Positions 1 to 34,225 of a DNA stretch of 64,000 nt are shown here, piece by piece. The position numbers and the translations under genes were made by a program. How positions within the stretch are numbered: the stretch's first letter is position 1; each line of letters starts with the position of its first letter. The DNA lies in contig JACPAV010000002.1 of assembly GCA_016180645.1 (NCBI GenBank), positions 174,628 to 238,627 of the forward strand. The letters run 5' to 3'. The notes below the pieces were generated by a model that was not told where the DNA came from, searched no databases, and was given only the letters and a program-made list of their open reading frames with translations. Origin of the DNA: Nitrospirota bacterium. Lineage in GTDB: Bacteria; JACPQY01.

Positions 1-258
1 CCCGCGCCTGCGGGCCGCAAGGGAGAAATGGCCGGCATGGCACGCCACGTCAAGGACCGTCATCCTCTCAAGGGATCCCCCACAGATCGTGGTGAGGAGC
101 TCGAAGGCGACGTCCTCGATATAGAGCAGGCGGGCCCCGTCTTCCGCGGCGCGAGGCACGACCATGGTGCCGTCACGCTTGCGATGAACGATGTGATAAT
201 CGCTTTCAACCGTTTGACCGACAGGGGCGTCGGCTAAGTCCAGGTAGGGTAGTCTCAT
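1..258 (-). CDS. putative SAM-dependent methyltransferase, N-terminal fragment; gene continues beyond window start
   Basis: My own minus-strand translation from ATG at 258-256 runs MRLPYLDLADAPVGQTVESDYHIV...LERMTVLDVACHAGHFSLAARRRG with no stop before position 1. VLDVACHAGHFS resembles methyltransferase motif I. Start overlaps the upstream stop (ATGA). Absent from ORF track, probably because no stop lies in the window. Confidence 0.4.
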   Translation of the reverse strand, partial: MRLPYLDLADAPVGQTVESDYHIVHRKRDGTMVVPRAAEDGARLLYIEDVAFELLTTICGGSLERMTVLDVACHAGHFSLAARRRG

Positions 259-1061
259 CTGATTGCAACCTCCTTCGTGGGATCGGCGGCGTCGACGCGC
301 CCAGGCACTCTCAGAGTCGCGCGCGGGACCCTTCTCATCCAGGGAAACGAAATCAGGCCTCCCTTCACAAGAGCCTCGGCCCTCTCGAATTCAGGAAGGG
401 AGTCGATCGACATTGCCCTCTGCTCAGGCGTTTCATAGAGAAGCGTATTCCGGCTGCTCCGCCAGGAGTCCGTCTGCCGCCGAACGAATCCCGCCCGCCA
501 CAAGTAGAGCGACCCGTTGATCCGGTATACCGGCGGGACGTCCTGACGACGCGTGTAACGGGCCGCATCGCCAAAAAGGTTCGCGAGGCGCCCCTTCCTC
601 TCCACCACGCACACCCAGATCGGGTTGAAGTCGGGCTTGGACACGGCAAGGATTCCGTCCGCGTCAGGAGCGGCCTTGAGCTTGGTCAAGGCGCCGGACA
701 CGTCTTCAGGAAGCCGGCCTGGGGATGTGGGATCCAGGAGAAGCACAAACTCGTACGGGGAGCCTTCCTGCCCCTCGACCGTCGCCAAGGCATGGTGGAC
801 CACTTCCCACATGGGAGTATCGTCTTGGGCCAAGGCGGCCGGACGGATGAAGGGCACATCGGCGCCGAATTGCCGGGCCACCTCGGCGATGGCAGGCGAG
901 TCGGTCGAAACGACCAGCCGCTCGACCTCGGGACAAGACCGGCCGAAGAGCACGGAATGGCCGATGAGCGGCACCCCGGCGAGGGGCCTTATGTTTTTCC
1001 CCGGCAACCCTTTGGATCCCCCGCGCGCGGGGATAAGGGCGAGAAGTCTGCCCGGGCTCAC
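255..1061 (-). CDS. CMP-nonulosonate (acylneuraminate-type) cytidylyltransferase, NeuA family
   Basis: N-terminal LALIPARGGSKGLPGKNI motif typical of CMP-NeuAc/Leg/Pse synthetases; 268 aa. Confidence 0.75.
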   Translation of the reverse strand: MSPGRLLALIPARGGSKGLPGKNIRPLAGVPLIGHSVLFGRSCPEVERLVVSTDSPAIAEVARQFGADVPFIRPAALAQDDTPMWEVVHHALATVEGQEGSPYEFVLLLDPTSPGRLPEDVSGALTKLKAAPDADGILAVSKPDFNPIWVCVVERKGRLANLFGDAARYTRRQDVPPVYRINGSLYLWRAGFVRRQTDSWRSSRNTLLYETPEQRAMSIDSLPEFERAEALVKGGLISFPWMRRVPRATLRVPGRVDAADPTKEVAIR

Positions 1062-2086
1062 GGGTACTCAATCCTTTCCTCCCGCCCGGTACGGGAGGAA
1101 CGTCGCGCCGCGTCGCAAACGGCCAGGGCCTTCACCCCTTCGTTCGCCGTCGCCAGTTGCGCCGAGGCCCCAGGGTCCTTGCCGCCGTTCACGAAAGCCC
1201 GGTCTTGTGCCAGGAGCATGTCCTCCTTGGCCTGCGGGAAAGTCGTCACGTGCCGGTCTTCCCCAACTCGGGAAACCGCGGTCGTACCCGTGAGACCGTC
1301 CCACTCGATCGTGCCCTCGGAGCCGTGGGCGCGCATCATGCGCCTCCACGGTCGGGTGACATAGTCCAGCGTGAGCGAGACCATCCAGCCTCCCGGAGCC
1401 TCCCAAAGGAGGTCGGCCGACTCTTCAGACTCTATGCCCAACTGCTTCCCTTTCTTCAACTTCGCCTGAATGTGCGCGGGCCATCCGTACAGCCATCCCG
1501 CGTAGTCGATTTCGTGGATCAGATCCCTCAACACACCGCCTTCCCCTTCACGTGCCGAGTAGGTTGACCGATAAGGCCGCGCCGGCCTCCAATCCGGAAG
1601 ATAGGACTGGCATTCAATCCGTACGCTGTGCAAATCCCCGATTCGAGGGAGGATTCGCCGGAACGCGTTCAGGGAATCACAAAATCGCAAGGTGTTCCCG
1701 ATGAAGAGACTTCGGCCCAAATTCACGGCCCTCCTCCTGAGTGCCTCGGACCGAGGAGCGTCTTCCGCAAGGGGCTTCTCGATGAGCACATCCATCCCGG
1801 TCTCCAAGGCCGTCCAGCCGTCCTCATAGTGACAGCCTGTATCCGTTGCAATGACGGCGATCTTCGCGCCCTCGCGGGCGGCCTCCTGAAGATCCGAAGC
1901 CGTTTCCAGGCCAAGGGCCAGAAGCTCCGTCCGTCTTTCCTTCCTCCGCGGCACCGCAACGGGAACGGCCTCGCCCATCCGTCGGATCACTTCCAAATGC
2001 CGCAGCCCGATGGTGCCCGTTCCGCGAACAGCCACCCTCACGGGGGAGGCCGTCCCGTCTACGCCGCCAGGCTCTTGGGTGCGCAT
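1058..2086 (-). CDS. Gfo/Idh/MocA family NAD(P)-dependent oxidoreductase
   Basis: Rossmann VRVAVRGTGTIG near N-terminus and EKP motif. Track ORF runs to 2188 but that would overlap the upstream gene; internal ATG (MRTQEP) at 2086 chosen, no clear SD. Confidence 0.6.
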   Translation of the reverse strand: MRTQEPGGVDGTASPVRVAVRGTGTIGLRHLEVIRRMGEAVPVAVPRRKERRTELLALGLETASDLQEAAREGAKIAVIATDTGCHYEDGWTALETGMDVLIEKPLAEDAPRSEALRRRAVNLGRSLFIGNTLRFCDSLNAFRRILPRIGDLHSVRIECQSYLPDWRPARPYRSTYSAREGEGGVLRDLIHEIDYAGWLYGWPAHIQAKLKKGKQLGIESEESADLLWEAPGGWMVSLTLDYVTRPWRRMMRAHGSEGTIEWDGLTGTTAVSRVGEDRHVTTFPQAKEDMLLAQDRAFVNGGKDPGASAQLATANEGVKALAVCDAARRSSRTGREERIEYP

Positions 2087-2099
2087 CGCCCCGGAAATA

Positions 2100-3701
2100 T
2101 CAAGCGGCCGGTTTGTCCGCCGGCAGCGGCGGTGGGGAGGGGAAAGCGGACGCGGGAGGACGATCATGGCCGGTTTCGGCAACCCCATTTCCCCTCCCGG
2201 AGCGCCGATCGTTTCCTCTCTGCTCGACTTCGGCCAATCTCTTGAAATCGAACCTCACCATCAGTTCCCGAAGCCCGTAGAGTTCGAGGGCGCTGAACCG
2301 TTCCGAAATGACCGCCGAGATCTTTGTCGCGTCGCCCAAATCCAAAAGGAATGCCTCCAAGTCGCCTCCGTACTGCTCCAGGATTCGATCCTTGTAGACG
2401 GCGTACCACTCCGAGCCCGGATAAGGGGTGGCGAAGAATGGCTTGACCACGAGGCCCAGCTCCTCCCAGGCCTTCACGTTGTCCATCAACGAATCGAAAT
2501 CCTCCGTCGGAAAACCCATCATTTGATTGGGAATGGGCCGGATACCCGCATCGATGGTCCAGTGGAACGAACGGATGTTTGTCTCGGGAGTCGCTCCTTT
2601 ACCGAGCGTCTTGAGTATTCTCTTTGAGAAAGACTCATATCCATAGACCAGATGGGAGCAACCCGACTGCCGCATTTTCCTCAAGATCTCCGGGGTGCAG
2701 AGCGTCGCGTGGCTTGTTCCGCTCCAGTGCATCCCCTCGCAATCGGCGCCGTGCCTGACGCCCTCCCGGACGCATTTCGGTTGCAGCCCTTCGCCGATCC
2801 ACAAGTCGCAAATCGCGCTCAGCCAGGTCCTCCCGGATGTCTGATCCATCGTCATCAAGTTCTCATCAAGAAACCCGATAAAATCGACTTGGTATCGTTC
2901 CCGAAGGTGCCGGGCCAGGTTCACAACATAGCGCGGGCTGTGATACCGAATGTCACGCGTGTAGGAACCCGGCAGGTCAAAACTCACGTCCCGCTCTCCC
3001 TCCTGATTGATCACGTACTTCATGTCCCCGCTGAGCCCCAGATGAAAACAGAATTTGCACACCAACGAGCATCCGTAGGAGGCGTTGATGTCCAATCGCC
3101 GCCGGGCCATCATTCCTTCTTCCGAGAACAGGGCTTGGCTGTTGCGAAAATAAACCTCTTCGAGGGGAAAGAGATCGTAGGCCGGAAAGGGAAGAGTATC
3201 CAGGTCCCTGAGGAGATCTCTCGGACGCGTCATGGCCAGACGTCCATCGCCGGAACGATAGATCAGGCCGTCAATCCCGGAAGGATCGGGTTGGCCGCCG
3301 CCAAGCCGGGAGAGCAACTCCGGAAAGGTCTGAAAGGCTTCCCCCACTACGCCCAGGTCGAATTCAGGCAGGAGCCGCATGATTTCCCTCGGCATCGCCG
3401 TCAGGATCCCCCCGCCGAGCACCCTTAGAGCGCGTGGGGCGAATTCTTTGGATAGCCGGCCGATCTTCCTGACGTAGCCATAGGTCGTCGTGATCCCCCC
3501 GGTCGCCACCACGTCCCAACCATCCGCCTCCAGGACCTGCCTCAATACCTCGTCGCCCAGACGCCAAGCGTTGGCGTCGTACACCTGGACCTGGTGGCCG
3601 TTCCGCATCGCCAGGGCCGCCAGAAGGGCCATGCCGTACGGAACGTGGCGCGGAACGTCTTCCGCCCGCACGATAGGATTGATGAACAAGACTTTGGCCA
3701 T
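2100..3701 (-). CDS. B12-binding domain radical SAM enzyme (probable methyltransferase-type)
   Basis: N-terminal cobalamin-binding-like domain (MAKVLFINP...) followed by CSLVCKFC (CxxxCxxC) radical SAM cluster motif; 533 aa. Confidence 0.8.
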   Translation of the reverse strand: MAKVLFINPIVRAEDVPRHVPYGMALLAALAMRNGHQVQVYDANAWRLGDEVLRQVLEADGWDVVATGGITTTYGYVRKIGRLSKEFAPRALRVLGGGILTAMPREIMRLLPEFDLGVVGEAFQTFPELLSRLGGGQPDPSGIDGLIYRSGDGRLAMTRPRDLLRDLDTLPFPAYDLFPLEEVYFRNSQALFSEEGMMARRRLDINASYGCSLVCKFCFHLGLSGDMKYVINQEGERDVSFDLPGSYTRDIRYHSPRYVVNLARHLRERYQVDFIGFLDENLMTMDQTSGRTWLSAICDLWIGEGLQPKCVREGVRHGADCEGMHWSGTSHATLCTPEILRKMRQSGCSHLVYGYESFSKRILKTLGKGATPETNIRSFHWTIDAGIRPIPNQMMGFPTEDFDSLMDNVKAWEELGLVVKPFFATPYPGSEWYAVYKDRILEQYGGDLEAFLLDLGDATKISAVISERFSALELYGLRELMVRFDFKRLAEVEQRGNDRRSGRGNGVAETGHDRPPASAFPSPPPLPADKPAA

Positions 3702-3784
3702 CTAGTAGGTTCTCATGTCCGCTCCCCGCTCACCTGCGGAACGACAAGCCATGGGGCCGATGTGATCCGACGGCTCTCCGGTGG

Positions 3785-3979
3785 TCAGGAACCGGCCTCC
3801 CCGCTGTTCCCCGTGCCCGCATCCCCCTTGTAGATGAACTTCTTCCTGGAAACGAAGGAAATGCTTCCCCCCAATTTTTTCAGGGCTTCCCTCTCGAACG
3901 TCTCCGTCAAGTCGTCGGATGGTTCGCCGGCCCGCACGGGATTCTTCGGTGTGAAATTTCCTTTCAAGACTTCACGCAT
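3785..3979 (-). CDS. small 64-aa ORF, candidate leader-type peptide or small protein of unknown function
   Basis: ATG at 3979-3977 preceded by AGGAGAGGAGG about 6 nt upstream (strong Shine-Dalgarno). Peptide MREVLKGNFTPKNPVRAGEPSDDLTETFEREALKKLGGSISFVSRKKFIYKGDAGTGNSGEAGS. Track ORF extends to a GTG at 4030 that lacks an RBS. Confidence 0.4.
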   Translation of the reverse strand: MREVLKGNFTPKNPVRAGEPSDDLTETFEREALKKLGGSISFVSRKKFIYKGDAGTGNSGEAGS

Positions 3980-4117
3980 GGCTTTCCTCCTCTCCTGTCC
4001 TTTTCGGATTTCCGCAGCCGGCGGTTGCACAACCCCAGCCTATAGCTCCGCAGTGTCCCGTGCCGGCGCCGCCATCGCATCGGACTACAGCCCATCCTGA
4101 ACCGAACGGGGGAACGT

Positions 4118-4624
4118 TCAGCAGGGCTCGACGGACCGCGGCTCGACTTCAACCGCCACGGATTGACCGAGCAGGTCTATCGAGACGATCAGGACGCCTT
4201 TCTTGTCGCAGTTCCTGACGAACTGACCGGCCAGACCTCTCAGAGGACCCCGCGTTACACAGACCACATCCCCCCCCCTGAGATAGGGGTGGGGCCGGGG
4301 CAGACCGTTGCCTAGAAGTTGCCTGACGGCCCCAATCTGATCTTCCGGAATCGCCTCAGGCCGAGCGGGATCGTACCCGATCAAGTCCACCACTCCATGG
4401 GTTTTCTTTGCGTCAAGCCAGTCCTCATAGCTCTCCTCGCATTGGAGAAAAACGTACCCCGGGAAAAGTGGGCGATTCGTCTCTACCTCACGGGATCGAA
4501 TCCAGCGCGAAGCCCGATAGGTGGGGAAAAAAACCTCGGGGAATCGATTCTTCAGAGCACCGGCGACTGCGGCCTCGTGATTGGAGCGTGTCCTTGCTGC
4601 GTACCATTCCATGGTCACTCGCAA
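4118..4624 (-). CDS. NusG-paralog transcription antiterminator (RfaH/UpxY/LoaP-like)
   Basis: N-terminal NGN domain (WYAARTRSNHE...FPEVFFP) and C-terminal KOW-like segment (GDVVCVTRGPLRGLAGQFV); 168 aa; sits at head of a long polysaccharide-type operon. Confidence 0.75.
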   Translation of the reverse strand: MRVTMEWYAARTRSNHEAAVAGALKNRFPEVFFPTYRASRWIRSREVETNRPLFPGYVFLQCEESYEDWLDAKKTHGVVDLIGYDPARPEAIPEDQIGAVRQLLGNGLPRPHPYLRGGDVVCVTRGPLRGLAGQFVRNCDKKGVLIVSIDLLGQSVAVEVEPRSVEPC

Positions 4625-4674
4625 TTCCCTTTCGAAAACCCTATCTGCCTACAACTTCAAGTACTTTCCAGAGA

Positions 4675-4704
4675 TATTCTACCGTATATTGATCCAACGT
4701 GTCA
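4675..4704 (-). promoter_or_regulatory. sigma70-like promoter upstream of NusG-paralog: TTGACA-N18-TAGAAT
   Basis: Minus-strand reading gives TTGACACGTTGGATCAATATACGGTAGAAT in the AT-richer 170-bp gap between the KdsB-like gene and the NusG-paralog start. Confidence 0.4.
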
Positions 4705-4796
4705 AGTTGAAGGCTCCATTCCATGCCCTTTCCATCGTTCGTTAACTTAATAATAGATCGGCCTCAAATTGCAGAAAGTTTAGCCGCCGGCAGCGA

Positions 4797-5582
4797 TCAG
4801 GCGTATCCAAGAGACATGACCTGCCGCAGAACCTCGCCCTGCCGGATCTGCCCACTCAGGCAGCTCTCGACAAGCTGCGCGTCCTCTGGAATGTTGATCG
4901 ATGGAAAACCGCGCGAGAACTCGACCCCCCACAGAGGCTCGTCATGCTCGACCACCCGCGACTGATCGATGGATTCCAAGCATTCAAGAGGGGTGCGCTC
5001 CATCCGGGTGAATCGTCCCAGGAAGTTTCGATGGTAACCCAGGATTCCCAGGATTTTCCTGACCGGATCGAAGGCGCCGTTCCTGAGAGGGAGGCCCGAG
5101 AAATCTCGAGAGCAATACAGGACACGGCCTTTTCGGGAGACTACGCATTTGACCACCGTCCGGTCGGCCAACTCCTTTTTCTCATCGATCTTGGCCACGG
5201 CGTTCCAAGCCTGGATGTCCGGCCTTTCGCGAATGGCCGCGGTCATCCGAAGCAGGTCCTCGGGCAGGACCAGCGGCTCATCGCCCTGGATGTTGACGAC
5301 GTGGGTGCAACTCAGCCGCTCCGCGGCTTCCGCCACTCGGTCCGAGGCCGCCACGTGCGACGCGGACGTCATGGCGACCTTGGCGCCGAGCGGCTCGATC
5401 GCTTCCCGGATCCGCTCGTCGCACGTCGCCACAACCACCTCGCTGAAGCCGCCGCTCAGGACCGCCCGCCGACGCACATGCTCCACCATGGGCAATCCCC
5501 GAATCTCCAGGAGGGGTTTTCCGGGAAAACGACCGGAGGCCATCCTCGCAGGAATGACGGCGGCAATGCGAATCATCTCCAT
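4797..5582 (-). CDS. KdsB-family cytidylyltransferase (CMP-Kdo synthetase-like)
   Basis: AAVIPARMASGRFPGKPL motif typical of 3-deoxy-manno-octulosonate cytidylyltransferase family; 261 aa. Confidence 0.7.
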   Translation of the reverse strand: MEMIRIAAVIPARMASGRFPGKPLLEIRGLPMVEHVRRRAVLSGGFSEVVVATCDERIREAIEPLGAKVAMTSASHVAASDRVAEAAERLSCTHVVNIQGDEPLVLPEDLLRMTAAIRERPDIQAWNAVAKIDEKKELADRTVVKCVVSRKGRVLYCSRDFSGLPLRNGAFDPVRKILGILGYHRNFLGRFTRMERTPLECLESIDQSRVVEHDEPLWGVEFSRGFPSINIPEDAQLVESCLSGQIRQGEVLRQVMSLGYA

Positions 5583-7942: not shown

Positions 7943-8275
7943 TCAGGCCGGTCGGCCGTTCCGTGTCCAACGCAACTGGAGCAGGCGTTTCCCGCCCGCC
8001 GGCCACTGTCTCAAGGCTTGGTCCAACGTGTAGACGGGATTCGCATCCCGGCGATCTTTCACCGCAACCGTCCCGGGCGCGTTCGTCTTGAGAAACACCC
8101 CGACCGCCGATTCGACGGCGCCCGATTCGGGACAATAGCAATCCTTCGGAAGAAACCGGTTGTGTGGGCCGCCCAGCACCATTCGGTTTCTGTAGATCCA
8201 TATTTCCGGGCCAGGTTGCCTCGGCCCAGGCCGACGCGGAAGTCGAACGCCTCCGCATGCTTCCGGTTCTGCCAC
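7943..8275 (-). CDS. hypothetical protein (about 110 aa)
   Basis: ORF fits the operon gap: 27 nt after the transaldolase stop and 6 nt before the HpcH start. No recognisable motif. An alternative ORF in another frame (8059-8302) overlaps it. Confidence 0.3.
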   Translation of the reverse strand: MAEPEACGGVRLPRRPGPRQPGPEIWIYRNRMVLGGPHNRFLPKDCYCPESGAVESAVGVFLKTNAPGTVAVKDRRDANPVYTLDQALRQWPAGGKRLLQLRWTRNGRPA

Positions 8276-9711: not shown

Positions 9712-10790
9712 GCCTCGCTTCCCTTTCGCCCATCGGATTTCCTGCCGACCACCCGCGCAAAAGAGCTCATTCGCATCTCCTGGAGGAAGGACTGAAATGC
9801 TTCTTGCACCTCGGAACCGCTCTCCAGAAGCCGGCGCTCGAAGGGAGACAGGGGAATGGCCCCATCTTCTTGTGCGTGAACACGAACCGTCTCGATATCC
9901 AGAGCGCCCGGCGTGCTGACCTCGATCAATTCAAACCCTGTGGCCCGGAGGAGCTGCTCAAGCCCCGCAAGCCCAAAGCAATTCGTCCGATCCGGCGGAT
10001 AGAGATACTTGTTGCGCAATCCCAAGACGGTCATATCGAACCCCGAGCTGACCGCCGCCGTCAGAAAGAGGAGACCACCCTCCACCAAGCGTTCGCGGAC
10101 CCCGCGGAGGAGCCGGGCCGGGTCTCGCGCCCGGTCGAGCGCCTCCAGCAGAACCGCAACCCCCGCCCGCGCGACCGTTCTCCTCCGGGTGCCTTCTTCC
10201 AATTCCCGGACCTCGCTCCCCACGGCCGTTTCGGTCAATCGTGCCTCATCCACCGTTGACACTTCGGAAAACAGCCGCGACCCCCGGAGCAGGGGGGCCA
10301 TGTCGCCCGGCGGTATCCCCACATCCAGCGCGTGAGTTCGGCCCATTCCGTGAAGCCGCAGACTGTTCCGGATCCATTCGATCTTGGGGAGATACACCTT
10401 GTCCTGCCTCGAAGCCGCCAATCCCGGGGAGAATTCCAGGTTCCTCCGTCGTCCCTCTGCGGTGCTCCTCAAGACTTCCGCCCACCGATCGGCGTTGGGA
10501 ATCTCCTGAAGGAAGAATCCTCGGCAGCGGCCGCAGCCGGCGTACGGAAGTTGCTCCACCACCCCGATCGGCGCCAGGTCCAAGTGACACGCCGGACAGG
10601 AGGTTCGGGGTGTCCCCGACACCCGCAAGGCGTTTCTCACCGTGTCGATGCAGAACGACCGGTATCCGCCCAGCCGGTCCAGCGGCTTGACGGAAGACAG
10701 GGGAACCGCAAGACCGGATTGGACCGAGAAAGGGACCGGAGACAACGATTCAGGCGTGGGAGAAGCGGAGCGATATTCTTCACCCCACAT
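9708..10790 (-). CDS. putative SAM-dependent methyltransferase with N-terminal zinc-ribbon
   Basis: CPACHLDL...GCGRC (CxxC-N17-CxxC) followed by HALDVGIPPGD motif-I-like and downstream methyltransferase-like segments; resembles sugar C-methyltransferase architecture. Family assignment tentative. Confidence 0.5.
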   Translation of the reverse strand: MWGEEYRSASPTPESLSPVPFSVQSGLAVPLSSVKPLDRLGGYRSFCIDTVRNALRVSGTPRTSCPACHLDLAPIGVVEQLPYAGCGRCRGFFLQEIPNADRWAEVLRSTAEGRRRNLEFSPGLAASRQDKVYLPKIEWIRNSLRLHGMGRTHALDVGIPPGDMAPLLRGSRLFSEVSTVDEARLTETAVGSEVRELEEGTRRRTVARAGVAVLLEALDRARDPARLLRGVRERLVEGGLLFLTAAVSSGFDMTVLGLRNKYLYPPDRTNCFGLAGLEQLLRATGFELIEVSTPGALDIETVRVHAQEDGAIPLSPFERRLLESGSEVQEAFQSFLQEMRMSSFARVVGRKSDGRKGSEA

Positions 10791-12342
10791 AGGTCAACCT
10801 CCGGGTGACTTCGTCCTCGCCGTACATGATTTGGTAGTACTCGCGAGAAAGCCGCTCAAAGACCTTGTTTCCCAACTCATCGAAACTCTCCGCCCTTCGG
10901 ATATCGCCGGCGCGCGAAATCGGAAGTTTGACATGGAGCGGGAACGTTCGCTGCAGCCCAAGGATCTCCTTGGCCGAGAGGTAGGGGGCGGGCATGTCGA
11001 GAATGGACTCCCCGATGACGGACGTCGTCTGCCGTTCGGGATCCAGCCAACCCGCCCGGACCGCCGCATCTCGGAGCCCCGTGCCATGGTAGGGCACAAA
11101 AATATTGACGCTGACCGAGTCGAACGACCCGATTTCGCGATTCAGCGCGATGGTGTCGAAGAACAGTTCCCGCGTTTCAAACGGAAACCCCACCATGTTG
11201 TTGAGCGTAAACGGGATGCCCACTTTGGCCACGGTGGAACATTTCTCGAGGATTTTCGCGTTCGTCACGTGCCGCTCGATCACCTTCTTCCGAAACGCTT
11301 CATTTCCGTGCTCAAGGCCGAAAGAGATCCGGTAACATCCGACCTCTTGAAGCCAAGTCAGTTTCTCCTCATCGATGTCTTCGAGGCGCGTCTGGAACCA
11401 GAAGGGGATTTTGAAATCACGGTACATACGCGCGAAAGATGCGATTTCCGCCTTGGGGCGGGCCATGAACGCATCGTCCACGAAGTAGAAGAACTCCGGG
11501 GAATAGCGCCGGATCATCTGCTCCATCTCGTTTCGGAGGGTTTCCATGCTCTTCCGGCGGAGGAAGAAGCCCTGCTTCTTCTCCTTGGCGATCACGAGCT
11601 GCGTGGGTGAATTGCAGAAGGAGCAGGTATAGGGGCAGCCCCGGTAGGTCTCGATCGGGATGGTCTTCCATATCTTCTTTCCGAGGGGTCGGAAGAACCG
11701 CTTTTCGGAGAAGAGTGACCAATCGGGAAGGACCCGGTTGATGTCGACCAGCGGTCTCGGGAGGTTCCGCGCGAAGGCGCCGTCGGGCGTTCGAACCCAG
11801 GCGCCCGGCAGGGTCGCGAGATCGGCTCCTTGACGGACGCGCTCGCAGAATTCCACGAGGGTCTCCTCCCCTTCACCGGTTCCCATGACGGAAACTTGGG
11901 GGGCTGCGGCGACGATGTCGGGGGCCATGGTGGCAAATACGCCTCCAACGAGAGTCCGGATGTCCGGGTAGGTGGAGAGGATCTCCAGCATGCGTTTCGC
12001 CTGCGGCCAGGCATCCTCGACCAGTGTGCACAGGACGGCCGCGTGAGGCTTGAACGCGTCGAGCTTGCGGGCGAAATCTCCATCCAGATCTTCGCGGACG
12101 TCCGGGAAGATGTCGCCCGGCTCGAACCGCCGGCTGTTGACCATCTTGTTGGCGCGCGTGATGGGCAAGGCCTCCCCGAGAAACTCGATGGCGGGGCGAT
12201 AGGGCGTGGCATCGAAAAGATCGATTTCGTAGCCCTGATTCTTCAAGAGAGAAGTGAAGAGCGCGACGGCGTACGAAGGGGTAAGCATGAGGCTCAAATT
12301 GGGGTAGACCAGGAGTACGCGGAATCGGGTTTTCTCAATCAC
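10780..12342 (-). CDS. B12-binding domain radical SAM enzyme (second paralog)
   Basis: N-terminal RVLLVYPN B12-binding-like region and CPYTCSFC (CxxxCxxC) motif; 520 aa. Confidence 0.8.
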   Translation of the reverse strand: MIEKTRFRVLLVYPNLSLMLTPSYAVALFTSLLKNQGYEIDLFDATPYRPAIEFLGEALPITRANKMVNSRRFEPGDIFPDVREDLDGDFARKLDAFKPHAAVLCTLVEDAWPQAKRMLEILSTYPDIRTLVGGVFATMAPDIVAAAPQVSVMGTGEGEETLVEFCERVRQGADLATLPGAWVRTPDGAFARNLPRPLVDINRVLPDWSLFSEKRFFRPLGKKIWKTIPIETYRGCPYTCSFCNSPTQLVIAKEKKQGFFLRRKSMETLRNEMEQMIRRYSPEFFYFVDDAFMARPKAEIASFARMYRDFKIPFWFQTRLEDIDEEKLTWLQEVGCYRISFGLEHGNEAFRKKVIERHVTNAKILEKCSTVAKVGIPFTLNNMVGFPFETRELFFDTIALNREIGSFDSVSVNIFVPYHGTGLRDAAVRAGWLDPERQTTSVIGESILDMPAPYLSAKEILGLQRTFPLHVKLPISRAGDIRRAESFDELGNKVFERLSREYYQIMYGEDEVTRRLTYVG

Positions 12343-12381: not shown

Positions 12382-13470
12382 TCATCGCGATTCGGCAAGG
12401 GTCGCAGACGGGCCCGGGCGCCGATCTCCCCAGATCCTCGGTCGACGGGGCTCTTGGGGTTCGAGGCCCGGCCGGCGTCCCACACAGGCATAGACTTCAC
12501 GCACGAGACTCATGATATGGGCGGCCTCCGGGAGCGTGCCGTGCGTTGGGGATCGCCCTTCGAGGATGGAGTCGACGAATTCAAACGTTTCTTTCTTCCA
12601 TGAATCGTCCCGATCGAAGTAGATGATTTCCTCCCGAGGATTGCCCAGGGCCAGCGCCTCGTCTTCGAATTGGCGCCGACCGACCACCAGTTGTTCCCGC
12701 CCATAACTGCCTGTCTGGGACAGGAGGCCCGAGAGAACCAAGTACCCGTCCCTGCACCCGACCTCGACTCGAAAGGTATGCTTCCAGAGGGTCGCGGACG
12801 AGTGCAGGAAAGCCGGGACTCCCCGTTCCGATTCGAGAAGCACGAAGGCATTGTCCTCCACCCCGCATCCCCAGAATGAATCGCGGAGAACGGCCTGAAC
12901 CACCCTCATCGGGCCGCAGAAAAATTGAAAGAGATCCAGCATGTGGACTCCCTGGTCCAGCAGGATTCCCCCCCCCGACACCTCGTATCGATTCCGCCAA
13001 TTTTCCCGATAGTTCAATCCGCCGGACTTGCCGTAGGTGGCCTTAAGGTGAATGACCTCCCCCAACCCGCCTTCTCCCAGAAATGCCTTCGCCGCCTGGA
13101 CGGATGGGTGGAGCCTGTGGTTGAACCCGAAGACGATCCTCCGACGGGTCTTCCCCGACACGGCCTCTGCGATCCGAGAAAAATCCTCCCAGTTCCGGCC
13201 CGGCGGTTTCTCACAAAAGACATTTCCGCACCGTTCCAACGCTTCCACGCAGAGGTCTACGGTCACATCGTTCGGTGTGCAGACAAACGCCGCGCCTACG
13301 TCGCTCCAGTCTACCTCCTCCGAGGACGTCACCCAGGCCACATCCCCGCCGGTCACCGGGACAGGACCGGCAGGCTCCACGATCCAGATCCTGCCGACGC
13401 GCGGATGTTCCCGGAGAACCCGATGGCGAATTTTCCCCATGTATCCGAATCCGAAAATGACGCAGTTCAC
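12382..13470 (-). CDS. Gfo/Idh/MocA family oxidoreductase (second paralog)
   Basis: MNCVIFGFGYMGKIRH Rossmann start, VCTPND and EKPPG motifs; 362 aa. Confidence 0.7.
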   Translation of the reverse strand: MNCVIFGFGYMGKIRHRVLREHPRVGRIWIVEPAGPVPVTGGDVAWVTSSEEVDWSDVGAAFVCTPNDVTVDLCVEALERCGNVFCEKPPGRNWEDFSRIAEAVSGKTRRRIVFGFNHRLHPSVQAAKAFLGEGGLGEVIHLKATYGKSGGLNYRENWRNRYEVSGGGILLDQGVHMLDLFQFFCGPMRVVQAVLRDSFWGCGVEDNAFVLLESERGVPAFLHSSATLWKHTFRVEVGCRDGYLVLSGLLSQTGSYGREQLVVGRRQFEDEALALGNPREEIIYFDRDDSWKKETFEFVDSILEGRSPTHGTLPEAAHIMSLVREVYACVGRRPGLEPQEPRRPRIWGDRRPGPSATLAESR

Positions 13471-15170
13471 GCCGCTCCTCCACGGTGCGTGAATCCCGCC
13501 GCCTCGAGAAAGGTCGAAATCGAACGCTCCGTCACGAGCCCCAAGTAGGTTTCAACATATTTCAGGGCATTCTCCCAAGCCCCGGGATCGGGCCTGTAGT
13601 CCGGCTGGAAGGCGGTGTCCAACACCTCGGCCAGCGCGCCGGGTGACTCCGTCCAAAGCCGCCATTCGTTCATGCCCGCAAGGGGATCGCCGGAATGGGC
13701 GGATTGGCCCCTCAGATAGACCGGCCGCAATCCCTGGAGCACCGCATGGAGCGCCGCGGAGGAGCCTCGATAGATGACGAAGGAAGACCGCGCAAAGTCC
13801 TCCTCGACCGGTCTCTCGGAGATCTCCAGATTGGGCCATTTCCGGGCGGACTCTCGTACGCTCGCCAAGACCCGGCGGTCTGGAAGCATGGGGTGTGCCC
13901 TGAGAATAAATTCGCGGTCCGGGAATCGGCGGGCGCACTCCTCCGCCGCGCGATAGAAATCGTCCACTTCCGTCTCCAATCCCTCCGGAACGAAGAGGAC
14001 CGCGCCGAGGTTGGACCGTGGCTGAGACGCTCCCGATCGGAGCCGCCGCCGACAACTTCCGAACCGAATCAGGTCAATTCCGTGGACGTCGTGTCCGGAA
14101 CGCATCGCGGCCAGGGTCTCTTCCCCCAGGCACAAGACCAAGTCGGGTGTGGAACCGGGCCCCAGTTCCTTCGTGGGTCGGATCAACGACAAGGACTCGG
14201 GAAAAAGCATCGTGTGCGCGTAGCCGGCAATTCGCGTGGCCGGCGAGATCTCCTTGATTCCCCGGCCCGCGCACTTCTCCCAACCGTGCCCTTCATAGAG
14301 GGTCAGGAACACGCGGGGACTCCATCGACGGGCGACCTCCCGGCCGATCCAGTAGAACAGGCCGTTGCGATGGGGAAGAAGCCCCAGGCAATCCTGACTC
14401 GCTTGGCGGCAGAGTCCGCGTTCCACGGGGTCGGTCGCGCGCGAGGCTTCCCGCGCCAATCGCCAGGACCATTTCGTTTGGAGGATGGCCATTTGAATCG
14501 GCGCCGACGGCGGCACGAGGGCCACTTCCGCCATCGCGTGCTTCTCCTTCGTCGACAGACGGGATCGGGCAAAAGCGTGAGGATCTCCGCTTGATCCGTC
14601 TCCGCATATCATCAGCGTCCGCACGCCCTTCCGCTCGAGCCTCCCTTGGAGATCACCAAAATAAAAATCGCTGCCGTCCTCCGCCCGGGCCGGGCCATAA
14701 CACCAAGTCTTGATTACAACGTCGAAGTTTCTTCGCGTAAGCTCTTGAATCTCGCGCCTCTGCGAGGCCCGGATTGTCCGAACGGTTTTCCCCGTGCGGA
14801 GCGCGAACCGCCACAGGGTCCGGGTTGAAGACCAAATGCTCCGGAGGGAAAAGGAACCGGCCTTCCCCGCGGCTTGGAGGACTGCATCCGGCCCGCCCTC
14901 CTGCGTCAGAACGGATTCCTGAACGGCGTGGACGGGATGTTTGAGATACAACCAGGGGATAGCCATGACGGGTAGGACCGGAAACCTTCGCCTGATCCGT
15001 TCAAGGACGAGACCCAATTGATGCAGGTCGGGGGACACCGCCGGACCCGATTCCCACCGTCCTGAAAGCTCGCGCCCGGCGCGATTCGGGACGGCCCCGC
15101 CCAACCCCCGCCCAACGGCGTCGGCCATGGCGGTGGGTGTTGAGAGTGGAGCTAGGTCCACCATCCCCAT
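13467..15170 (-). CDS. hypothetical protein, possibly TagF-like transferase (HP motif)
   Basis: 567 aa; contains FILRAHPMLPD resembling the HP motif seen in the two TagF-like paralogs at 34212-37046 and 38749-40122. No clear RBS; start uncertain. Confidence 0.35.
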   Translation of the reverse strand: MGMVDLAPLSTPTAMADAVGRGLGGAVPNRAGRELSGRWESGPAVSPDLHQLGLVLERIRRRFPVLPVMAIPWLYLKHPVHAVQESVLTQEGGPDAVLQAAGKAGSFSLRSIWSSTRTLWRFALRTGKTVRTIRASQRREIQELTRRNFDVVIKTWCYGPARAEDGSDFYFGDLQGRLERKGVRTLMICGDGSSGDPHAFARSRLSTKEKHAMAEVALVPPSAPIQMAILQTKWSWRLAREASRATDPVERGLCRQASQDCLGLLPHRNGLFYWIGREVARRWSPRVFLTLYEGHGWEKCAGRGIKEISPATRIAGYAHTMLFPESLSLIRPTKELGPGSTPDLVLCLGEETLAAMRSGHDVHGIDLIRFGSCRRRLRSGASQPRSNLGAVLFVPEGLETEVDDFYRAAEECARRFPDREFILRAHPMLPDRRVLASVRESARKWPNLEISERPVEEDFARSSFVIYRGSSAALHAVLQGLRPVYLRGQSAHSGDPLAGMNEWRLWTESPGALAEVLDTAFQPDYRPDPGAWENALKYVETYLGLVTERSISTFLEAAGFTHRGGAA

Positions 15171-15449: not shown

Positions 15450-16211
15450 GTGGCGCCGCTAGGAAAGAAGTCCGTACTGGTCCTCATACCCGCCCGAGGC
15501 GGGTCCAAAGGCATTCCCCACAAAAACATCGTTGATCTTTGCGGGTACCCCCTTCTGGCCTACGCGATCGCCGCCGCGCGAAAGAGCGCTTTCAACCCGC
15601 GGATCCTCGTCACCACGGACGACGAGGAAATCGCGAGAGTCGCGAGGTCGTTCGGCGCCGATGCGCCCTTTCTTAGACCCGCCGAACTGGGCCAAGACAC
15701 AAGTCCTCTCACGGTGGCCCAACTCCACGCCCTCCATTGGCTTCGCGAGCACGAAGGCTACAGGCCGGCGGCCACCGCCACCGTGCTTCCGACGTATCCG
15801 TTCGTTCGCGCGAAGACGATCGATCAGGTGATCGGGCATGCGTTGAAAGGTATGTCGGCCCGAACGGTGATTCGCACTCCGGCATCGAGTCGCCTCTTTT
15901 TTCTCGAGGATGAAGGAGTATTGAGCCGCGTCCAATTCCGAACGCGATCCAAGCGGTGGTATCTGGGTACGGCCGCCGCGGGGGCCGTGCGGTACTTCCC
16001 CTCCTTTGATCCCGCGGCCATGAACGAGCGCGAGATCCTCCGTCTCATGAAACGATATGCGACCCGTCTCCGGAACTTGGGGATCAACACCCGAGGGCAT
16101 GCCACCATCGAGGTGACTTGGGTTGAAGCCGTGGACATCGATACGCCTCGTGAGCTGACCCTGGCCCGAAAACTGATCGCCTCGGGCGTAAGGCCTGCCC
16201 TTCTTCAATGA
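15450..16211 (+). CDS. CMP-nonulosonate cytidylyltransferase, NeuA family (second copy)
   Basis: VLIPARGGSKGIPHKNI motif; GTG start; 253 aa. Confidence 0.75.
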   Translation: MAPLGKKSVLVLIPARGGSKGIPHKNIVDLCGYPLLAYAIAAARKSAFNPRILVTTDDEEIARVARSFGADAPFLRPAELGQDTSPLTVAQLHALHWLREHEGYRPAATATVLPTYPFVRAKTIDQVIGHALKGMSARTVIRTPASSRLFFLEDEGVLSRVQFRTRSKRWYLGTAAAGAVRYFPSFDPAAMNEREILRLMKRYATRLRNLGINTRGHATIEVTWVEAVDIDTPRELTLARKLIASGVRPALLQ

Positions 16212-16945
16212 GTGCGATCGATTCCACCCTGGTCTTTTGCGCCGTGGTTCGACCCGGCACGTTCTGGAGCGTAGGCCCCCACTGGCGGTCGGCCCTGGCC
16301 AACGTTACGGGCCGGGCCTTGGAAGTTCACCACACTCTCCACCCCTTCCGCACGAATTTCGTCAGCGACTCAATGGACATGCTCCGGGAAGCGGCCGGGC
16401 TCCTATCCGGCCATGGGGTCCGCTTTTGCCGTTCGAACTCGCCGGCCAAGGCCCTCCGACGGCTGGCGCCGAAGAAGACCGAGGGGACGCTGATGGTCGT
16501 AAACCCCTTCTTCTGCTTTATCGAGCCGGGGGCCCTCTTGACGGCCCTGCGGCGACAAGGGGAGGCCCAGCAAATCCATGCGACCGTCCGCCGGCCGGAT
16601 CCTCATCCCCTTCATTTCTGCCATGAACGACGGATTCCCCAGGGGCGGGGCAAGTACGTTTGCGCGATCCACACCAATCAGTGGTACAACTACAGCCTCT
16701 ACTTCTCTCACAAGGGCAAGAATTTCGAATTCCGCCGGCAGAACTACCCGACGGTGCATGAAGCATGCAGCGCCATGACCGTCTTTCCATACTCGCTCGT
16801 AAATTCGTGGGAGCGATCCCTGAGGTCCGGACGATTCCGCGCCCTTCGACTCGAGGAGCCCGCCAGTCTGGATGCCTCCTACGAGCGGGATTTCTTCCTG
16901 GCCCAAGTCCTGCTGGAGGGCCGCCGGGAGGGGACGGCGGCCTGA
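16208..16945 (+). CDS. hypothetical protein
   Basis: 245-aa ORF whose ATG overlaps the upstream stop (ATGA); no motif recognised. Confidence 0.35.
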   Translation: MSAIDSTLVFCAVVRPGTFWSVGPHWRSALANVTGRALEVHHTLHPFRTNFVSDSMDMLREAAGLLSGHGVRFCRSNSPAKALRRLAPKKTEGTLMVVNPFFCFIEPGALLTALRRQGEAQQIHATVRRPDPHPLHFCHERRIPQGRGKYVCAIHTNQWYNYSLYFSHKGKNFEFRRQNYPTVHEACSAMTVFPYSLVNSWERSLRSGRFRALRLEEPASLDASYERDFFLAQVLLEGRREGTAA

Positions 16946-34204: not shown

Positions 34205-34225
34205 CCCCTCCTTACGAAGGAGGGG
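34205..34225 (-). other. intercistronic stem-loop CCCCTCCTT-ACG-AAGGAGGGG spanning the upstream stop codon
   Basis: Perfect 9-bp inverted repeat with 3-nt loop; contains the TAA stop of the 944-aa gene and lies about 15 nt upstream of the SD of the next gene; one arm is itself SD-like. Confidence 0.4.

What the first reader, a model, noticed from the sequence alone, without database searches (positions are those of the whole stretch)
3785..4624. NusG-paralog antiterminator followed by a strongly RBS-backed 64-aa ORF immediately upstream of a B12-radical SAM enzyme
The 64-aa ORF has a near-ideal Shine-Dalgarno (AGGAGAGGAGG, about 6 nt before ATG), so it is probably translated. Its sequence has a segment EREALKKLGG followed by a 26-residue Ser/Lys/Gly-rich tail, loosely resembling a double-glycine leader plus core. 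B12-dependent radical SAM enzymes are frequent peptide C-methyltransferases, so a peptide substrate is possible. The sugar context makes a glycan role for the radical SAM enzyme equally plausible, in which case the ORF could be a leader peptide or regulatory peptide for antitermination. No peptidase or exporter was seen in the window.
Basis: partly seen in the sequence, partly recalled or inferred. Interest (0 to 1): 0.6.

Follow-up and report, generated by a model that had tools for sequence, protein, structure and literature searches.

The report
Small partner protein of sugar-modifying radical enzyme
The 64-residue reading frame is a real, widely conserved and so far undescribed small protein that in about a hundred environmental genomes sits just upstream of the same vitamin-B12 radical enzyme inside gene clusters for sialic-acid-like sugars, so it belongs to a sugar-tailoring module and is neither an antibiotic-like peptide nor a regulatory leader.

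Summary
Observation confirmed. On the minus strand lie a consensus promoter, a NusG paralog (4118-4612), a 64-aa ORF (3785-3979) with AGGAGG 6 nt before its ATG, and a B12-binding radical SAM (rSAM) gene (2100-3701).

The ORF is under protein-level selection: invariant residues use all synonymous codons. Homologs occur in at least seven bacterial phyla or classes. No Pfam, NCBIfam or PDB family matches it.

In 86 of 88 non-redundant loci the order is small ORF, then a short Maf/MptE-like gene (~350 aa), then this rSAM. In 2 loci, and in this window, the small ORF directly precedes the rSAM. Here the MptE-like gene lies about 10 kb downstream in the same operon. All loci of 8 kb or more carry legionaminic/pseudaminic-type nonulosonic acid (NulO) genes.

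A NusG paralog is nearby in only 2 of 40 other loci. It is the operon's antiterminator, not a partner of the ORF.

Best reading (inferred): a largely disordered docking or adaptor subunit of a three-part NulO-tailoring module. Main rival: a peptide substrate or carrier using the invariant Ser39. A classical double-glycine RiPP and an antitermination leader peptide are not supported. The biochemical function remains untested.

The parts
4676..4705 (-). Sigma-70-type promoter-like site, TTGACA-18 nt-TAGAAT, upstream of the NusG paralog, in an AT-rich gap
   Evidence: 11 of 12 consensus matches; it is the only such site in 3500-5000. GC falls to 0.43-0.46 at 4600-4824, against 0.61 for the whole window.
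4118..4612 (-). Specialised NusG paralog (NGN plus KOW), the first gene of a long sugar operon
   Evidence: Pfam NusG 61.8 bits. UpxY 83.2, LoaP 66.9, RfaH 59.2 and NusG 54.6 bits, all below their curated cut-offs. NusG and RfaH structures matched by sequence; called as 164 aa in three other assemblies.
3980..4117 (-). 138-nt spacer between the NusG paralog and the small ORF, with no recognisable RNA element
   Evidence: no Rfam match at E<=1; folding z-score +0.83, no better than shuffled sequence; no terminator-like site.
3986..3996 (-). Shine-Dalgarno sequence AGGAGAGGAGG; the GGAGG ends 6 nt before the ATG
3785..3979 (-). 64-aa small protein, member of an uncharacterised conserved family (motifs KGNF and FE.EALK.LGGSIAFV.KK..W; invariant G7, N8, F28, G38, S39)
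   Evidence: conservation and codon usage. AF2 pLDDT 60.6, with only helix 24-36; no known family.
2100..3701 (-). B12-binding radical SAM enzyme (class B fold, CxxxCxxC at C211/C215/C218); orthologs 64-77% identical across phyla
   Evidence: AF2 pLDDT 83; nearest folds are OxsB, AprD4, TsrM, MgmA, TokK and CysS at about 15% identity.
1058..2086 (-). GFO/IDH/MocA-family sugar oxidoreductase, the next gene in the operon
255..1061 (-). PseF-like CMP-nonulosonic-acid cytidylyltransferase
   Evidence: CTP_transf_3. PseF 129.6 bits, below the 205.7 cut-off. A cytidylyltransferase lies in 37 of 40 long loci.

Best explanation
The 64-aa ORF encodes a genuine small protein. It forms one evolutionary and functional unit with the adjacent B12-binding radical SAM enzyme and with a short, TPR-less Maf/MptE-like protein (~350 aa).

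Shown:
- The three genes form a cassette, small ORF then MptE-like then rSAM. The cassette sits inside legionaminic/pseudaminic-type nonulosonic acid (NulO) clusters in many phyla.
- The cassette co-evolves as a block, independently of the surrounding NulO synthase.
- When the MptE-like gene is displaced, the small ORF stays directly upstream of the rSAM.

Inferred:
- The module tailors a NulO. The rSAM most plausibly performs radical chemistry, such as C-methylation, on the CMP-activated sugar or a late precursor. The MptE-like domain, which is the presumed CMP-NulO-binding domain of Maf transferases (own knowledge), would hold the nucleotide sugar.
- The small protein is largely disordered on its own. 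It would act as a non-catalytic docking or adaptor subunit that binds through two conserved short motifs: the N-terminal KGNF, and an amphipathic helix followed by the GGSIAFV strand. It would stabilise or bridge the rSAM and the MptE-like protein.

The NusG paralog is a separate feature. It is an UpxY/RfaH-like, operon-specific antiterminator, expressed from its own consensus promoter as the first gene of an operon of at least 12 sugar genes.
For: - Protein-level selection and a conserved start codon and Shine-Dalgarno sequence.
- Gene order: 86 of 88 loci have small ORF then MptE-like. The rSAM is within 3 kb in 57 of 57 loci. NulO genes are present in 40 of 40 long loci.
- The reciprocal test starting from the rSAM gave 5 of 5.
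- Gene junctions are tight or overlapping, for example 4-nt, 8-nt and 20-nt overlaps, which fits co-translated subunits.
- Pairwise-distance matrices correlate at r=0.89 (small vs rSAM), 0.86 (small vs MptE-like) and 0.91 (MptE-like vs rSAM), but only 0.26 for small vs NeuB.
- In the three exceptions (this window, L051, L109) the small ORF directly precedes the rSAM. In this organism a 367-aa MptE-like gene lies about 10 kb downstream in the same operon.
- The AF2 model shows one helix (24-36) and is otherwise low-confidence. The conserved motifs are separated by a variable acidic linker and followed by a variable tail.
- There are no Cys or His residues to bind a cofactor (sequence).
- The cassette occurs in both flagellar and non-flagellar (Wzx/glycosyltransferase) contexts.
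- Precedent for a small cis-encoded adaptor of a TPR-less Maf: GlfM with Maf-2 (bioRxiv 10.1101/2023.12.03.569772).
- NusG paralog.
Against: - No physical interaction has been shown, and complex prediction could not be run.
- The invariant polar residues (N8, S39, with Ser encoded by six codons) are more typical of a catalytic, ligand-contacting or modified residue than of a mere docking motif.
- Disordered small ORFs next to radical SAM genes are very often substrates.
- The rSAM's structural neighbours include both small-molecule enzymes (AprD4, OxsB, TokK) and a protein-modifying enzyme (MgmA), so its substrate class cannot be inferred.
- Not every B12-domain rSAM is a methyltransferase.
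- No glycan chemistry is known for any organism carrying the cassette.
Confidence: 0.45

Rival explanations
1. Peptide substrate or carrier. The small protein is itself the target of the module. The Maf/MptE-like enzyme O-links a nonulosonic acid to the invariant Ser39, or the rSAM alkylates a residue of the conserved KGNF or GSIAFV motifs. The amphipathic helix would serve as the enzyme-recognition element, as in PqqA/PqqE or MftA/MftC, where the precursor gene also comes first.
For: - The gene order, with a small disordered ORF first and the rSAM last, resembles peptide-derived cofactor and RiPP operons (own knowledge).
- There is exactly one invariant hydroxyl residue, S39, encoded by both AGY and TCN codons.
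- Maf-type enzymes O-glycosylate Ser/Thr.
- AF2 predicts disorder apart from one helix.
- The small ORF stays next to the rSAM when the MptE-like gene moves.
- The weak NCBIfam hits of the rSAM include RiPP methyltransferases and the MCR glutamine methylase. MgmA is also among the fold neighbours.
Against: - The cassette is always embedded in NulO clusters whose obvious end product is a glycan or glycosylated flagellin.
- There is no protease, exporter or immunity gene, and the gene is single-copy.
- Thr10 of the N-F-T sequon-like motif is not conserved.
- A sugar tethered to a peptide could not easily be passed on to a glycan.
- The tight translational coupling suggests stoichiometric amounts rather than excess substrate.
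Confidence: 0.3
2. GlfM-like acceptor-specificity adaptor. The small protein binds the short TPR-less Maf-like transferase and directs it to its protein acceptor (flagellin), as GlfM does for Maf-2. The rSAM would be only a neighbouring tailoring enzyme.
For: - In 86 of 88 loci the small ORF lies immediately upstream of the short MptE-like gene, often overlapping it.
- Some loci are flanked by flagellin genes and a long TPR-containing Maf.
- GlfM provides a precedent.
Against: - The protein is 55-65 aa with one predicted helix, whereas GlfM is 89 aa and a four-helix bundle.
- Flagellin genes were detected in only 3 of 40 long loci. Some clusters look like polysaccharide loci, with Wzx and glycosyltransferases.
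- When the MptE-like gene is displaced, the small ORF follows the rSAM and not the MptE-like gene.
- The partial correlation is stronger with the rSAM (0.49) than with the MptE-like protein (0.30).
Confidence: 0.13
3. Classical double-glycine RiPP or bacteriocin precursor. EREALKKLGG is a leader that is cleaved after GG, and the Ser/Lys/Gly-rich tail is a core peptide methylated by the rSAM and then exported.
For: A GG motif preceded by a helix with Glu at position -8 (sequence). The rSAM has weak NCBIfam hits to RiPP C-methyltransferases, 71-82 bits against cut-offs of 282-750.
Against: - The 12 residues after GG are as conserved as the putative leader, and only the distal tail varies in length and composition.
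- The first Gly is Ala in distant members.
- The hydrophobic register (-3, -6, -11) is shifted by one relative to the canonical -4, -7, -12 (own knowledge of the motif).
- No C39 peptidase or ABC exporter is present in the window or in any locus with gene calls.
- The gene is single-copy and always lies in a sugar context.
Confidence: 0.03
4. Leader or regulatory peptide for NusG-paralog antitermination. Translation of the ORF, or its RNA, would control read-through into the rSAM operon.
For: The ORF lies between the NusG paralog and the rSAM in this window.
Against: - The family is conserved at the amino-acid level with synonymous codon turnover.
- In other organisms a NusG paralog is near it in only 2 of 40 loci and never adjacent.
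- The flanking spacers contain no terminator, no Rfam element and no above-chance RNA structure.
Confidence: 0.02

Closest known systems
GlfM with Maf-2 (Shewanella oneidensis flagellin sialylation; bioRxiv 10.1101/2023.12.03.569772)
   Same: Both are small cis-encoded proteins flanking a TPR-less Maf-type (MptE-like domain) protein in a pseudaminic/legionaminic acid locus. In GlfM the small protein acts as a non-catalytic adaptor.
   Different: GlfM is 89 aa and a predicted four-helix bundle related to FliS/FliT. This family is 55-65 aa with one predicted helix and is otherwise disordered. This family is obligately linked to a B12 radical SAM enzyme and also occurs in apparently non-flagellar clusters. 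Sequence homology could not be tested because no GlfM sequence was available.
Precursor-peptide/radical-SAM operons for peptide-derived cofactors (PqqA with PqqD/E; MftA with MftB/C)
   Same: In both, a small conserved single-copy ORF is the first gene, followed by a partner protein and a radical SAM enzyme. Neither has a protease/exporter pair of the bacteriocin type.
   Different: Those peptides are 20-30 aa, and their conserved reactive residues lie at the C-terminus. Their partner is a PqqD-like RRE and their rSAM is a SPASM-type enzyme. Here the partner is a Maf/MptE-like domain, the rSAM is class B (B12 domain), the C-terminus is variable, and the context is a sugar pathway. This comparison rests on own knowledge, not on a test.
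Class B (cobalamin-dependent) radical SAM enzymes acting on activated small molecules or sugars, such as Fom3 on CMP-hydroxyethylphosphonate, GenK, AprD4 and OxsB
   Same: The same domain architecture, an N-terminal B12-binding domain plus a radical SAM core with CxxxCxxC. AprD4, OxsB, TsrM and TokK are the nearest folds. Fom3's CMP-activated substrate (own knowledge) is a precedent for acting on a cytidylylated intermediate.
   Different: The rSAM is only about 15% identical to any solved member and far below every NCBIfam cut-off. As far as I know, none of those enzymes needs a dedicated small protein. No NulO-modifying B12 rSAM appears in the literature searched.
Operon-specific NusG paralogs (UpxY of Bacteroides capsule loci, RfaH, LoaP)
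   Same: An NGN plus KOW protein of 164 aa, encoded as the first gene of a long surface-glycan operon behind its own promoter.
   Different: It scores below the curated cut-offs of UpxY (83 vs 100), LoaP (67 vs 125) and RfaH (59 vs 144.5). No ops-like recruitment element was identified. It is not part of the conserved small-ORF cassette.
Double-glycine leader peptides of class II bacteriocins and lanthipeptides
   Same: A helix ending in GG at residues 37-38.
   Different: There is no C39 peptidase or ABC exporter. The sequence after GG is conserved, the first Gly is replaceable by Ala, and the hydrophobic register is shifted.

Membership tests
Double-glycine-leader RiPP/bacteriocin precursor | A conserved leader ending in GG (or GA/GS), followed by a divergent core peptide | tested here: not met
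   GG is present, but the 12 residues after it (SIAFV.KK..W) are as conserved as those before it. Only a distal disordered tail varies. The first G is A in distant members.
Double-glycine-leader RiPP/bacteriocin precursor | A cognate C39 peptidase-domain ABC exporter or other leader peptidase in the cluster | tested here: not met
   None was found among about 45 window ORFs or in the Pfam-annotated gene calls of the other loci.
Radical-SAM-modified peptide (RiPP or peptide-derived cofactor) in the broad sense | The peptide is covalently modified by the adjacent radical SAM enzyme | not testable with these tools
   This needs mass spectrometry of the co-expressed peptide. Co-occurrence (57/57 and 5/5) is compatible with it but does not prove it.
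Class B (B12-binding) radical SAM enzymes | An N-terminal cobalamin-binding domain plus a radical SAM core with a CxxxCxxC cluster motif | tested here: met
   Pfam B12-binding 56.7 bits (cut-off 32.1) and Radical_SAM 51.3 bits (cut-off 29.5). C211, C215 and C218 are invariant in 32 orthologs. Fold matches to OxsB, TsrM, TokK and CysS have probability 1.0.
Class B (B12-binding) radical SAM enzymes | Methyl transfer to an unactivated carbon or phosphorus | not testable with these tools
   The family also contains non-methylases (AprD4, OxsB, BchE). The rSAM is below the cut-off of every NCBIfam equivalog.
Specialised NusG paralogs (UpxY/RfaH/LoaP) | NGN and KOW domains; a paralog distinct from housekeeping NusG | tested here: met
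   Pfam NusG 61.8 bits. The alignment covers nearly the whole length (residues 3-159 to 3-162) for UpxY, LoaP, RfaH and NusG, with the best score to UpxY. At 164 aa it is shorter than NusG (about 181 aa).
Specialised NusG paralogs (UpxY/RfaH/LoaP) | Membership of one named subfamily by curated score | tested here: not met
   UpxY 83.2 vs 100, LoaP 66.9 vs 125, RfaH 59.2 vs 144.5.
Specialised NusG paralogs (UpxY/RfaH/LoaP) | Encoded at the head of, or acting on, a long surface-polysaccharide or secondary-metabolite operon | tested here: met
   A consensus promoter lies upstream. At least 12 co-directional sugar genes follow downstream.
GlfM adaptors of Maf-2 | A four-helix-bundle protein of about 89 aa flanking a TPR-less maf gene | tested here: not met
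   The genomic position is analogous in 86 of 88 loci. However, the length is 55-65 aa and AF2 gives a single helix (GlfM description). Sequence comparison was not possible.
Acyl/peptidyl carrier proteins | A helical bundle of about 80 aa with a (D/H)S(L/I) phosphopantetheine site | tested here: not met
   LGGSI only superficially resembles GG(H/D)S(L/I). There is no PP-binding hit in Pfam or NCBIfam, only about 20 residues follow the Ser, and AF2 shows one helix.
Small-ORF / MptE-like / B12-rSAM cassette (defined here) | A small ORF with KGNF and GGS(I/M/V)x(F/Y)V motifs upstream of an orthologous rSAM in a NulO cluster, with a short MptE-like gene in the operon | tested here: met
   The window protein keeps all five invariant residues. 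Its rSAM is 64-77% identical to cassette rSAMs. A 367-aa MptE-like gene is in the same operon, outside the window.

The most novel reading that the evidence does not exclude
The small protein is a ribosomally made scaffold or carrier. The Maf-like enzyme attaches a nonulosonic acid to its invariant Ser39, and the B12 radical SAM enzyme then alkylates the peptide-tethered sugar or the peptide itself. That would be either a sialic-acid-type glycopeptide product or a peptide-templated route to a modified sugar. Neither has been described.
Probability: 0.2. Interest if true: 0.85.

Novelty: new variant of a known kind. Interest (0 to 1): 0.62.

Why it matters
Nonulosonic acids (legionaminic, pseudaminic and related sugars) decorate flagella, capsules and LPS, and they govern motility, phage recognition and immune evasion. 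Their tailoring chemistry is only partly known.

This analysis defines a compact, mobile three-gene module: a small protein, a short Maf-like protein and a B12 radical SAM enzyme. It is spread across at least seven bacterial phyla or classes and always lies inside such clusters. It has no family model in Pfam or NCBIfam, and the literature searches found no paper on it.

The module predicts a radical modification of these sugars, possibly C-methylation, that has not been reported. It also predicts a class B radical SAM enzyme that depends on a dedicated small protein, as a subunit or as a substrate. The cassette occurs in cultured strains (Colwellia chukchiensis, Thalassotalea spp., Cognaticolwellia aestuarii), so the prediction can be tested directly.

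Tried and rejected
- **Known-family searches for the small protein.** Pfam, NCBIfam and PHROGs scans and a PDB profile search found nothing. The only hit was a chance VLKGNF match in 4ic1.
- **RNA alternatives.** There is no Rfam hit. Folding of both spacers is no better than shuffled sequence. There is no terminator.
- **Split-off Maf N-terminal domain.** Profile comparison with two long Maf proteins gave probability of 0.1% or less.
- **MptE-like gene inside the window.** A relaxed tblastn found only the unrelated long Maf at 29949-32006 and noise. The missing partner was found beyond the window's left end through another assembly.
- **Natural fusions.** None of the 47 family representatives is a fusion of the small protein to an rSAM or a Maf domain. 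The longer hits are miscalled starts or repeat proteins.
- **N-glycosylation sequon N-F-T.** Rejected because Thr10 is variable.
- **Decaying gene.** One assembly (L035) has a 1-nt deletion. Three other samples of the same organism have the intact ORF, and all invariant residues are kept.
- **Literature.** Searches for radical SAM combined with flagellin glycosylation/Maf, nonulosonic/cobalamin, legionaminic acid, pseudaminic acid and DUF115, plus one for nonulosonic/C-methyl/B12-dependent, found nothing relevant. A 2026 B12-rSAM review has no mention of sialic or legionaminic acid, flagella, cytidylyl groups or nucleotide sugars.
- **Plasmids.** A plasmid search with the rSAM gave no match.
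- **Complex prediction.** Modelling the small protein with its partners was not possible with the structure tool.
Full report
**1. What is in the sequence**

All the genes in question are on the minus strand. Reading 5' to 3' on that strand:

- A KdsB-like cytidylyltransferase gene ends at 4797.
- An AT-rich gap follows, with GC of 0.43-0.46 against a window mean of 0.61. It holds the only consensus promoter match in the region, TTGACA-18-TAGAAT at 4705-4676, with 11 of 12 positions matching.
- The NusG paralog follows. Three other assemblies of the same organism call it as 164 aa from ATG 4612 to 4118. It has a Pfam NusG hit of 61.8 bits. Its NCBIfam hits to UpxY (83 bits), LoaP (67), RfaH (59) and NusG (55) cover almost its whole length but all fall below their curated cut-offs.
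- A 138-nt spacer follows, with no terminator, no Rfam match and folding no better than shuffled sequence.
- AGGAGAGGAGG lies at 3996-3986, 6 nt before ATG 3979.
- The 64-aa ORF runs to 3785.
- After 83 nt, the B12-binding radical SAM gene runs from 3701 to 2100.
- A GFO/IDH/MocA oxidoreductase (2086-1058) and a PseF-like cytidylyltransferase (1061-255) follow.

**2. Is the ORF a gene?**

Yes. The evidence is as follows.

- A word-indexed search found 28 homologs of 55-87 aa.
- A full HMMER scan of 1.84 billion cluster representatives found 47 hits, almost all 54-96 aa.
- Back-translated pattern scans found 30 loci in species-representative genomes. These span Nitrospirota, Chloroflexota, Acidobacteriota, Myxococcota and Alpha-, Beta- and Gammaproteobacteria, and include cultured Colwellia, Cognaticolwellia and Thalassotalea.
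- The same kind of scan confirmed 140 metagenome loci, of which 80 were kept.
- A codon-level alignment of 34 genome copies shows that the invariant residues are encoded by every synonymous codon: Gly by 4, Ala by 4, Val by 4, and Ser by 6 including both AGY and TCN. This is the signature of selection on the protein, not on DNA or RNA.
- The start codon aligns across the family, and 84 of 91 distinct homologs have a Shine-Dalgarno match of at least 4 nt at proper spacing.
- In a 63-sequence alignment, G7, N8, F28, G38 and S39 are invariant. L5, F9, V15, E29, A32, L33, L36, G37, I40, F42 and V43 are at least 90% conserved. The window protein keeps all of them.
- The family has no hit in Pfam, NCBIfam, PHROGs or PDB. 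Sources annotate it only as a hypothetical protein.

**3. Genomic company**

Flanks were examined in 39 loci fetched by protein identity or genome scan and in 80 metagenome loci. A tally of non-redundant loci gave the following:

| Measure | Result |
|---|---|
| Next gene is a short MptE-like (Maf/PseD-type, no TPR, ~350 aa) gene | 86 of 88 loci |
| Next gene is the rSAM itself | 2 of 88 (L051, L109) |
| Orthologous B12 rSAM within 3 kb (loci with at least 1.7 kb downstream) | 57 of 57 |
| Legionaminic/pseudaminic-type NulO genes (NeuB, LegB/C/G/H, PtmE, cytidylyltransferase), loci of 8 kb or more | 40 of 40 |
| Cytidylyltransferase, same loci | 37 of 40 |
| Long Maf, same loci | 14 of 40 |
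| Flagellin, same loci | 3 of 40 |
| NusG paralog, same loci | 2 of 40 |

- The reverse test started from five rSAM homologs that were chosen without reference to the small ORF. It found the same small ORF, MptE-like, rSAM order in 5 of 5 loci.
- Gene junctions are tight or overlapping.
- Pairwise-distance matrices from 26 loci correlate strongly among the three cassette proteins (r = 0.86-0.91). They correlate only weakly with NeuB from the same locus (r = 0.26-0.45).
- So the cassette evolves, and probably moves, as one unit among different NulO clusters. One caveat is that NeuB paralogy may contribute to the low correlation.

**4. The window is an informative exception**

- Here the small ORF directly precedes the rSAM, and no MptE-like gene lies between them or elsewhere in the window apart from an unrelated 685-aa Maf.
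- Another assembly of the same organism extends the operon past the window's left end. After the cytidylyltransferase come a methyltransferase, an SDR, a LegG-like epimerase, a second methyltransferase, a LegB-like dehydratase, a LegC-like aminotransferase and then a 367-aa MptE-like gene.
- So all three partners are still in one operon of at least 12 genes.
- In L051 the MptE-like gene has moved upstream, and in L109 the small ORF again directly precedes the rSAM. In every such case the small ORF stays with the rSAM.
- The partial correlations point the same way: small vs rSAM given MptE-like is 0.49, and small vs MptE-like given rSAM is 0.30.

**5. What the parts look like**

- AF2 with a 28-sequence alignment gives the small protein a mean pLDDT of 60.6. 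It predicts one helix (residues 24-36, the FEREALKKL segment) and no other structure. The protein is therefore likely disordered until bound.
- Its architecture is two conserved short motifs (KGNF, and the helix followed by GGSIAFV.KK..W). A variable acidic linker separates them, and a tail variable in length and composition follows.
- It has no Cys or His.
- The rSAM is unusually conserved, at 64-77% identity across phyla, with C211/C215/C218 invariant. It models confidently (pLDDT 83).
- Its nearest solved folds are OxsB, AprD4, TsrM, MgmA, TokK and CysS, all at about 15% identity. This confirms the class B architecture but says nothing about the substrate.
- The short MptE-like protein matches PseD/Maf only distantly, and it matches the nucleotide-binding part of archaeal MptE.

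**6. Interpretation**

The following points are shown:

- The gene is real.
- It is bound evolutionarily to the rSAM and the MptE-like protein.
- The module lives in NulO clusters.
- The NusG paralog is not part of it.

The rest is inferred. The module probably tailors a nonulosonic acid. The most economical scheme has three parts:

- The MptE-like domain is the presumed CMP-NulO-binding domain of Maf transferases (own knowledge). It would hold the cytidylylated sugar.
- The class B rSAM would perform radical chemistry on that sugar. Fom3, which methylates a CMP-activated substrate, is a precedent (own knowledge).
- The small protein would dock onto one or both enzymes as an adaptor.

GlfM, a small cis-encoded adaptor needed by the TPR-less Maf-2, is a functional precedent. 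It is not a demonstrable relative, because its size and predicted fold differ.

The main rival is that the small protein is itself a substrate or carrier. The invariant Ser39 and Asn8, the disorder, and the gene order with the peptide first and the rSAM last all fit that reading, and nothing computed here excludes it.

I put the adaptor/subunit reading at about 0.45, with a further 0.13 for a specifically GlfM-like acceptor adaptor. The substrate/carrier reading is at about 0.30.

**7. Readings not supported**

- **Classical double-glycine RiPP precursor.** The post-GG segment is conserved. The first Gly is replaceable. No C39 peptidase or exporter is present anywhere. The gene is single-copy and always in a sugar context.
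- **Leader or regulatory peptide for antitermination.** Selection acts on the protein, the family is independent of NusG paralogs, and there is no RNA element.

**8. The NusG paralog**

It is an UpxY/RfaH/LoaP-type specialised paralog by domain content, and it sits as the first gene of a long glycan operon behind a strong promoter. It does not reach any subfamily cut-off, and no recruitment (ops-like) site was identified. NusG paralogs also head two alphaproteobacterial NulO operons that contain the cassette (L032, L099). This fits the general use of such factors in long sugar operons.

**9. Novelty and value**

No Pfam, NCBIfam or PDB family covers the small protein, and no paper found describes it. 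The literature library holds nothing on a B12 radical SAM enzyme in nonulosonic acid pathways. The kind of system resembles known ones: sugar tailoring by a radical SAM enzyme, and a small partner of a Maf-like protein. The three-part composition is new, so I rate it a new variant of a known kind with moderate-to-good interest. The biochemical function remains untested. The experiments listed under next steps would settle it, and cultured carriers exist.

Noticed in passing
window 4270-4278 (also 12968-12976, 28698-28706, 37004-37013, 39982-39991, 55402-55411): A G9 homopolymer (minus strand) lies inside the NusG-paralog coding sequence (codons L-R-G-G-D). The window has six G/C runs of 9 or more, against about 2.4 expected, and five of them lie in the glycan cluster. 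In Campylobacter, such tracts drive phase variation of flagellar glycosylation genes (own knowledge). The tract length was identical in four other assemblies of this organism.
   Followed up: partly
L035:1641-1889 (equivalent to window 3785-3979): One other metagenome assembly of the same organism has a 1-nt deletion (TTTCCTTCG to TTTCC-TCG) that frameshifts the small ORF after GGSIS. Three further samples have the intact ORF. It may be an assembly error or a rare population variant.
   Followed up: partly
window 1-48300: About 48 kb of the window is one very large glycan cluster, almost entirely on the minus strand. It carries two NeuB genes, three or four cytidylyltransferases, a second unrelated B12 radical SAM (10780-12342), a 685-aa Maf-like protein (29949-32006), several GT4-type glycosyltransferases (Glycos_transf_1 and Glyco_transf_4 domains), FkbM-type and other methyltransferases, a formyltransferase and a WbqC-like protein. 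No flagellin gene was detected.
   Followed up: partly
window 25153-27099 (-): A 648-aa protein fuses a NeuB synthase (NeuB plus SAF) to a C-terminal xylose-isomerase-like TIM barrel (AP_endonuc_2). This is an unusual architecture for a nonulosonic acid synthase.
   Followed up: no
window 34212-37046 (-): A 944-aa multidomain protein combines Capsule_synth/Glyphos_transf-like, SAM-methyltransferase and TPR regions. It may be a polymerising or tailoring enzyme of the glycan.
   Followed up: no
window 7943-8182 (-): A 79-aa ORF with no Pfam hit, just upstream of the HpcH/HpaI aldolase gene, was called in three assemblies of this organism. Whether it is a real gene was not examined.
   Followed up: no
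window 13467-15170, 24111-25148, 28121-30052 (-), 16208-16945 (+): Four sizeable ORFs inside the glycan cluster have no Pfam or NCBIfam match. The only exception is a weak TIGR04326 (surface carbohydrate biosynthesis) hit for 13467-15170.
   Followed up: no
L125:3501-6103: In one long contig, the NeuB gene next to the cassette is split by an IS (DDE transposase) insertion. A second radical SAM/SPASM gene downstream is split by another transposase. These NulO clusters appear to be hot spots of rearrangement.
   Followed up: no
L126:1584-2696: In one cassette locus, a LegH-like hexapeptide acetyltransferase is fused to a biotin/lipoyl-attachment domain and preceded by E1 dehydrogenase/transketolase-like genes. 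This hints at an unusual acyl donor for the NulO N-acyl group.
   Followed up: no
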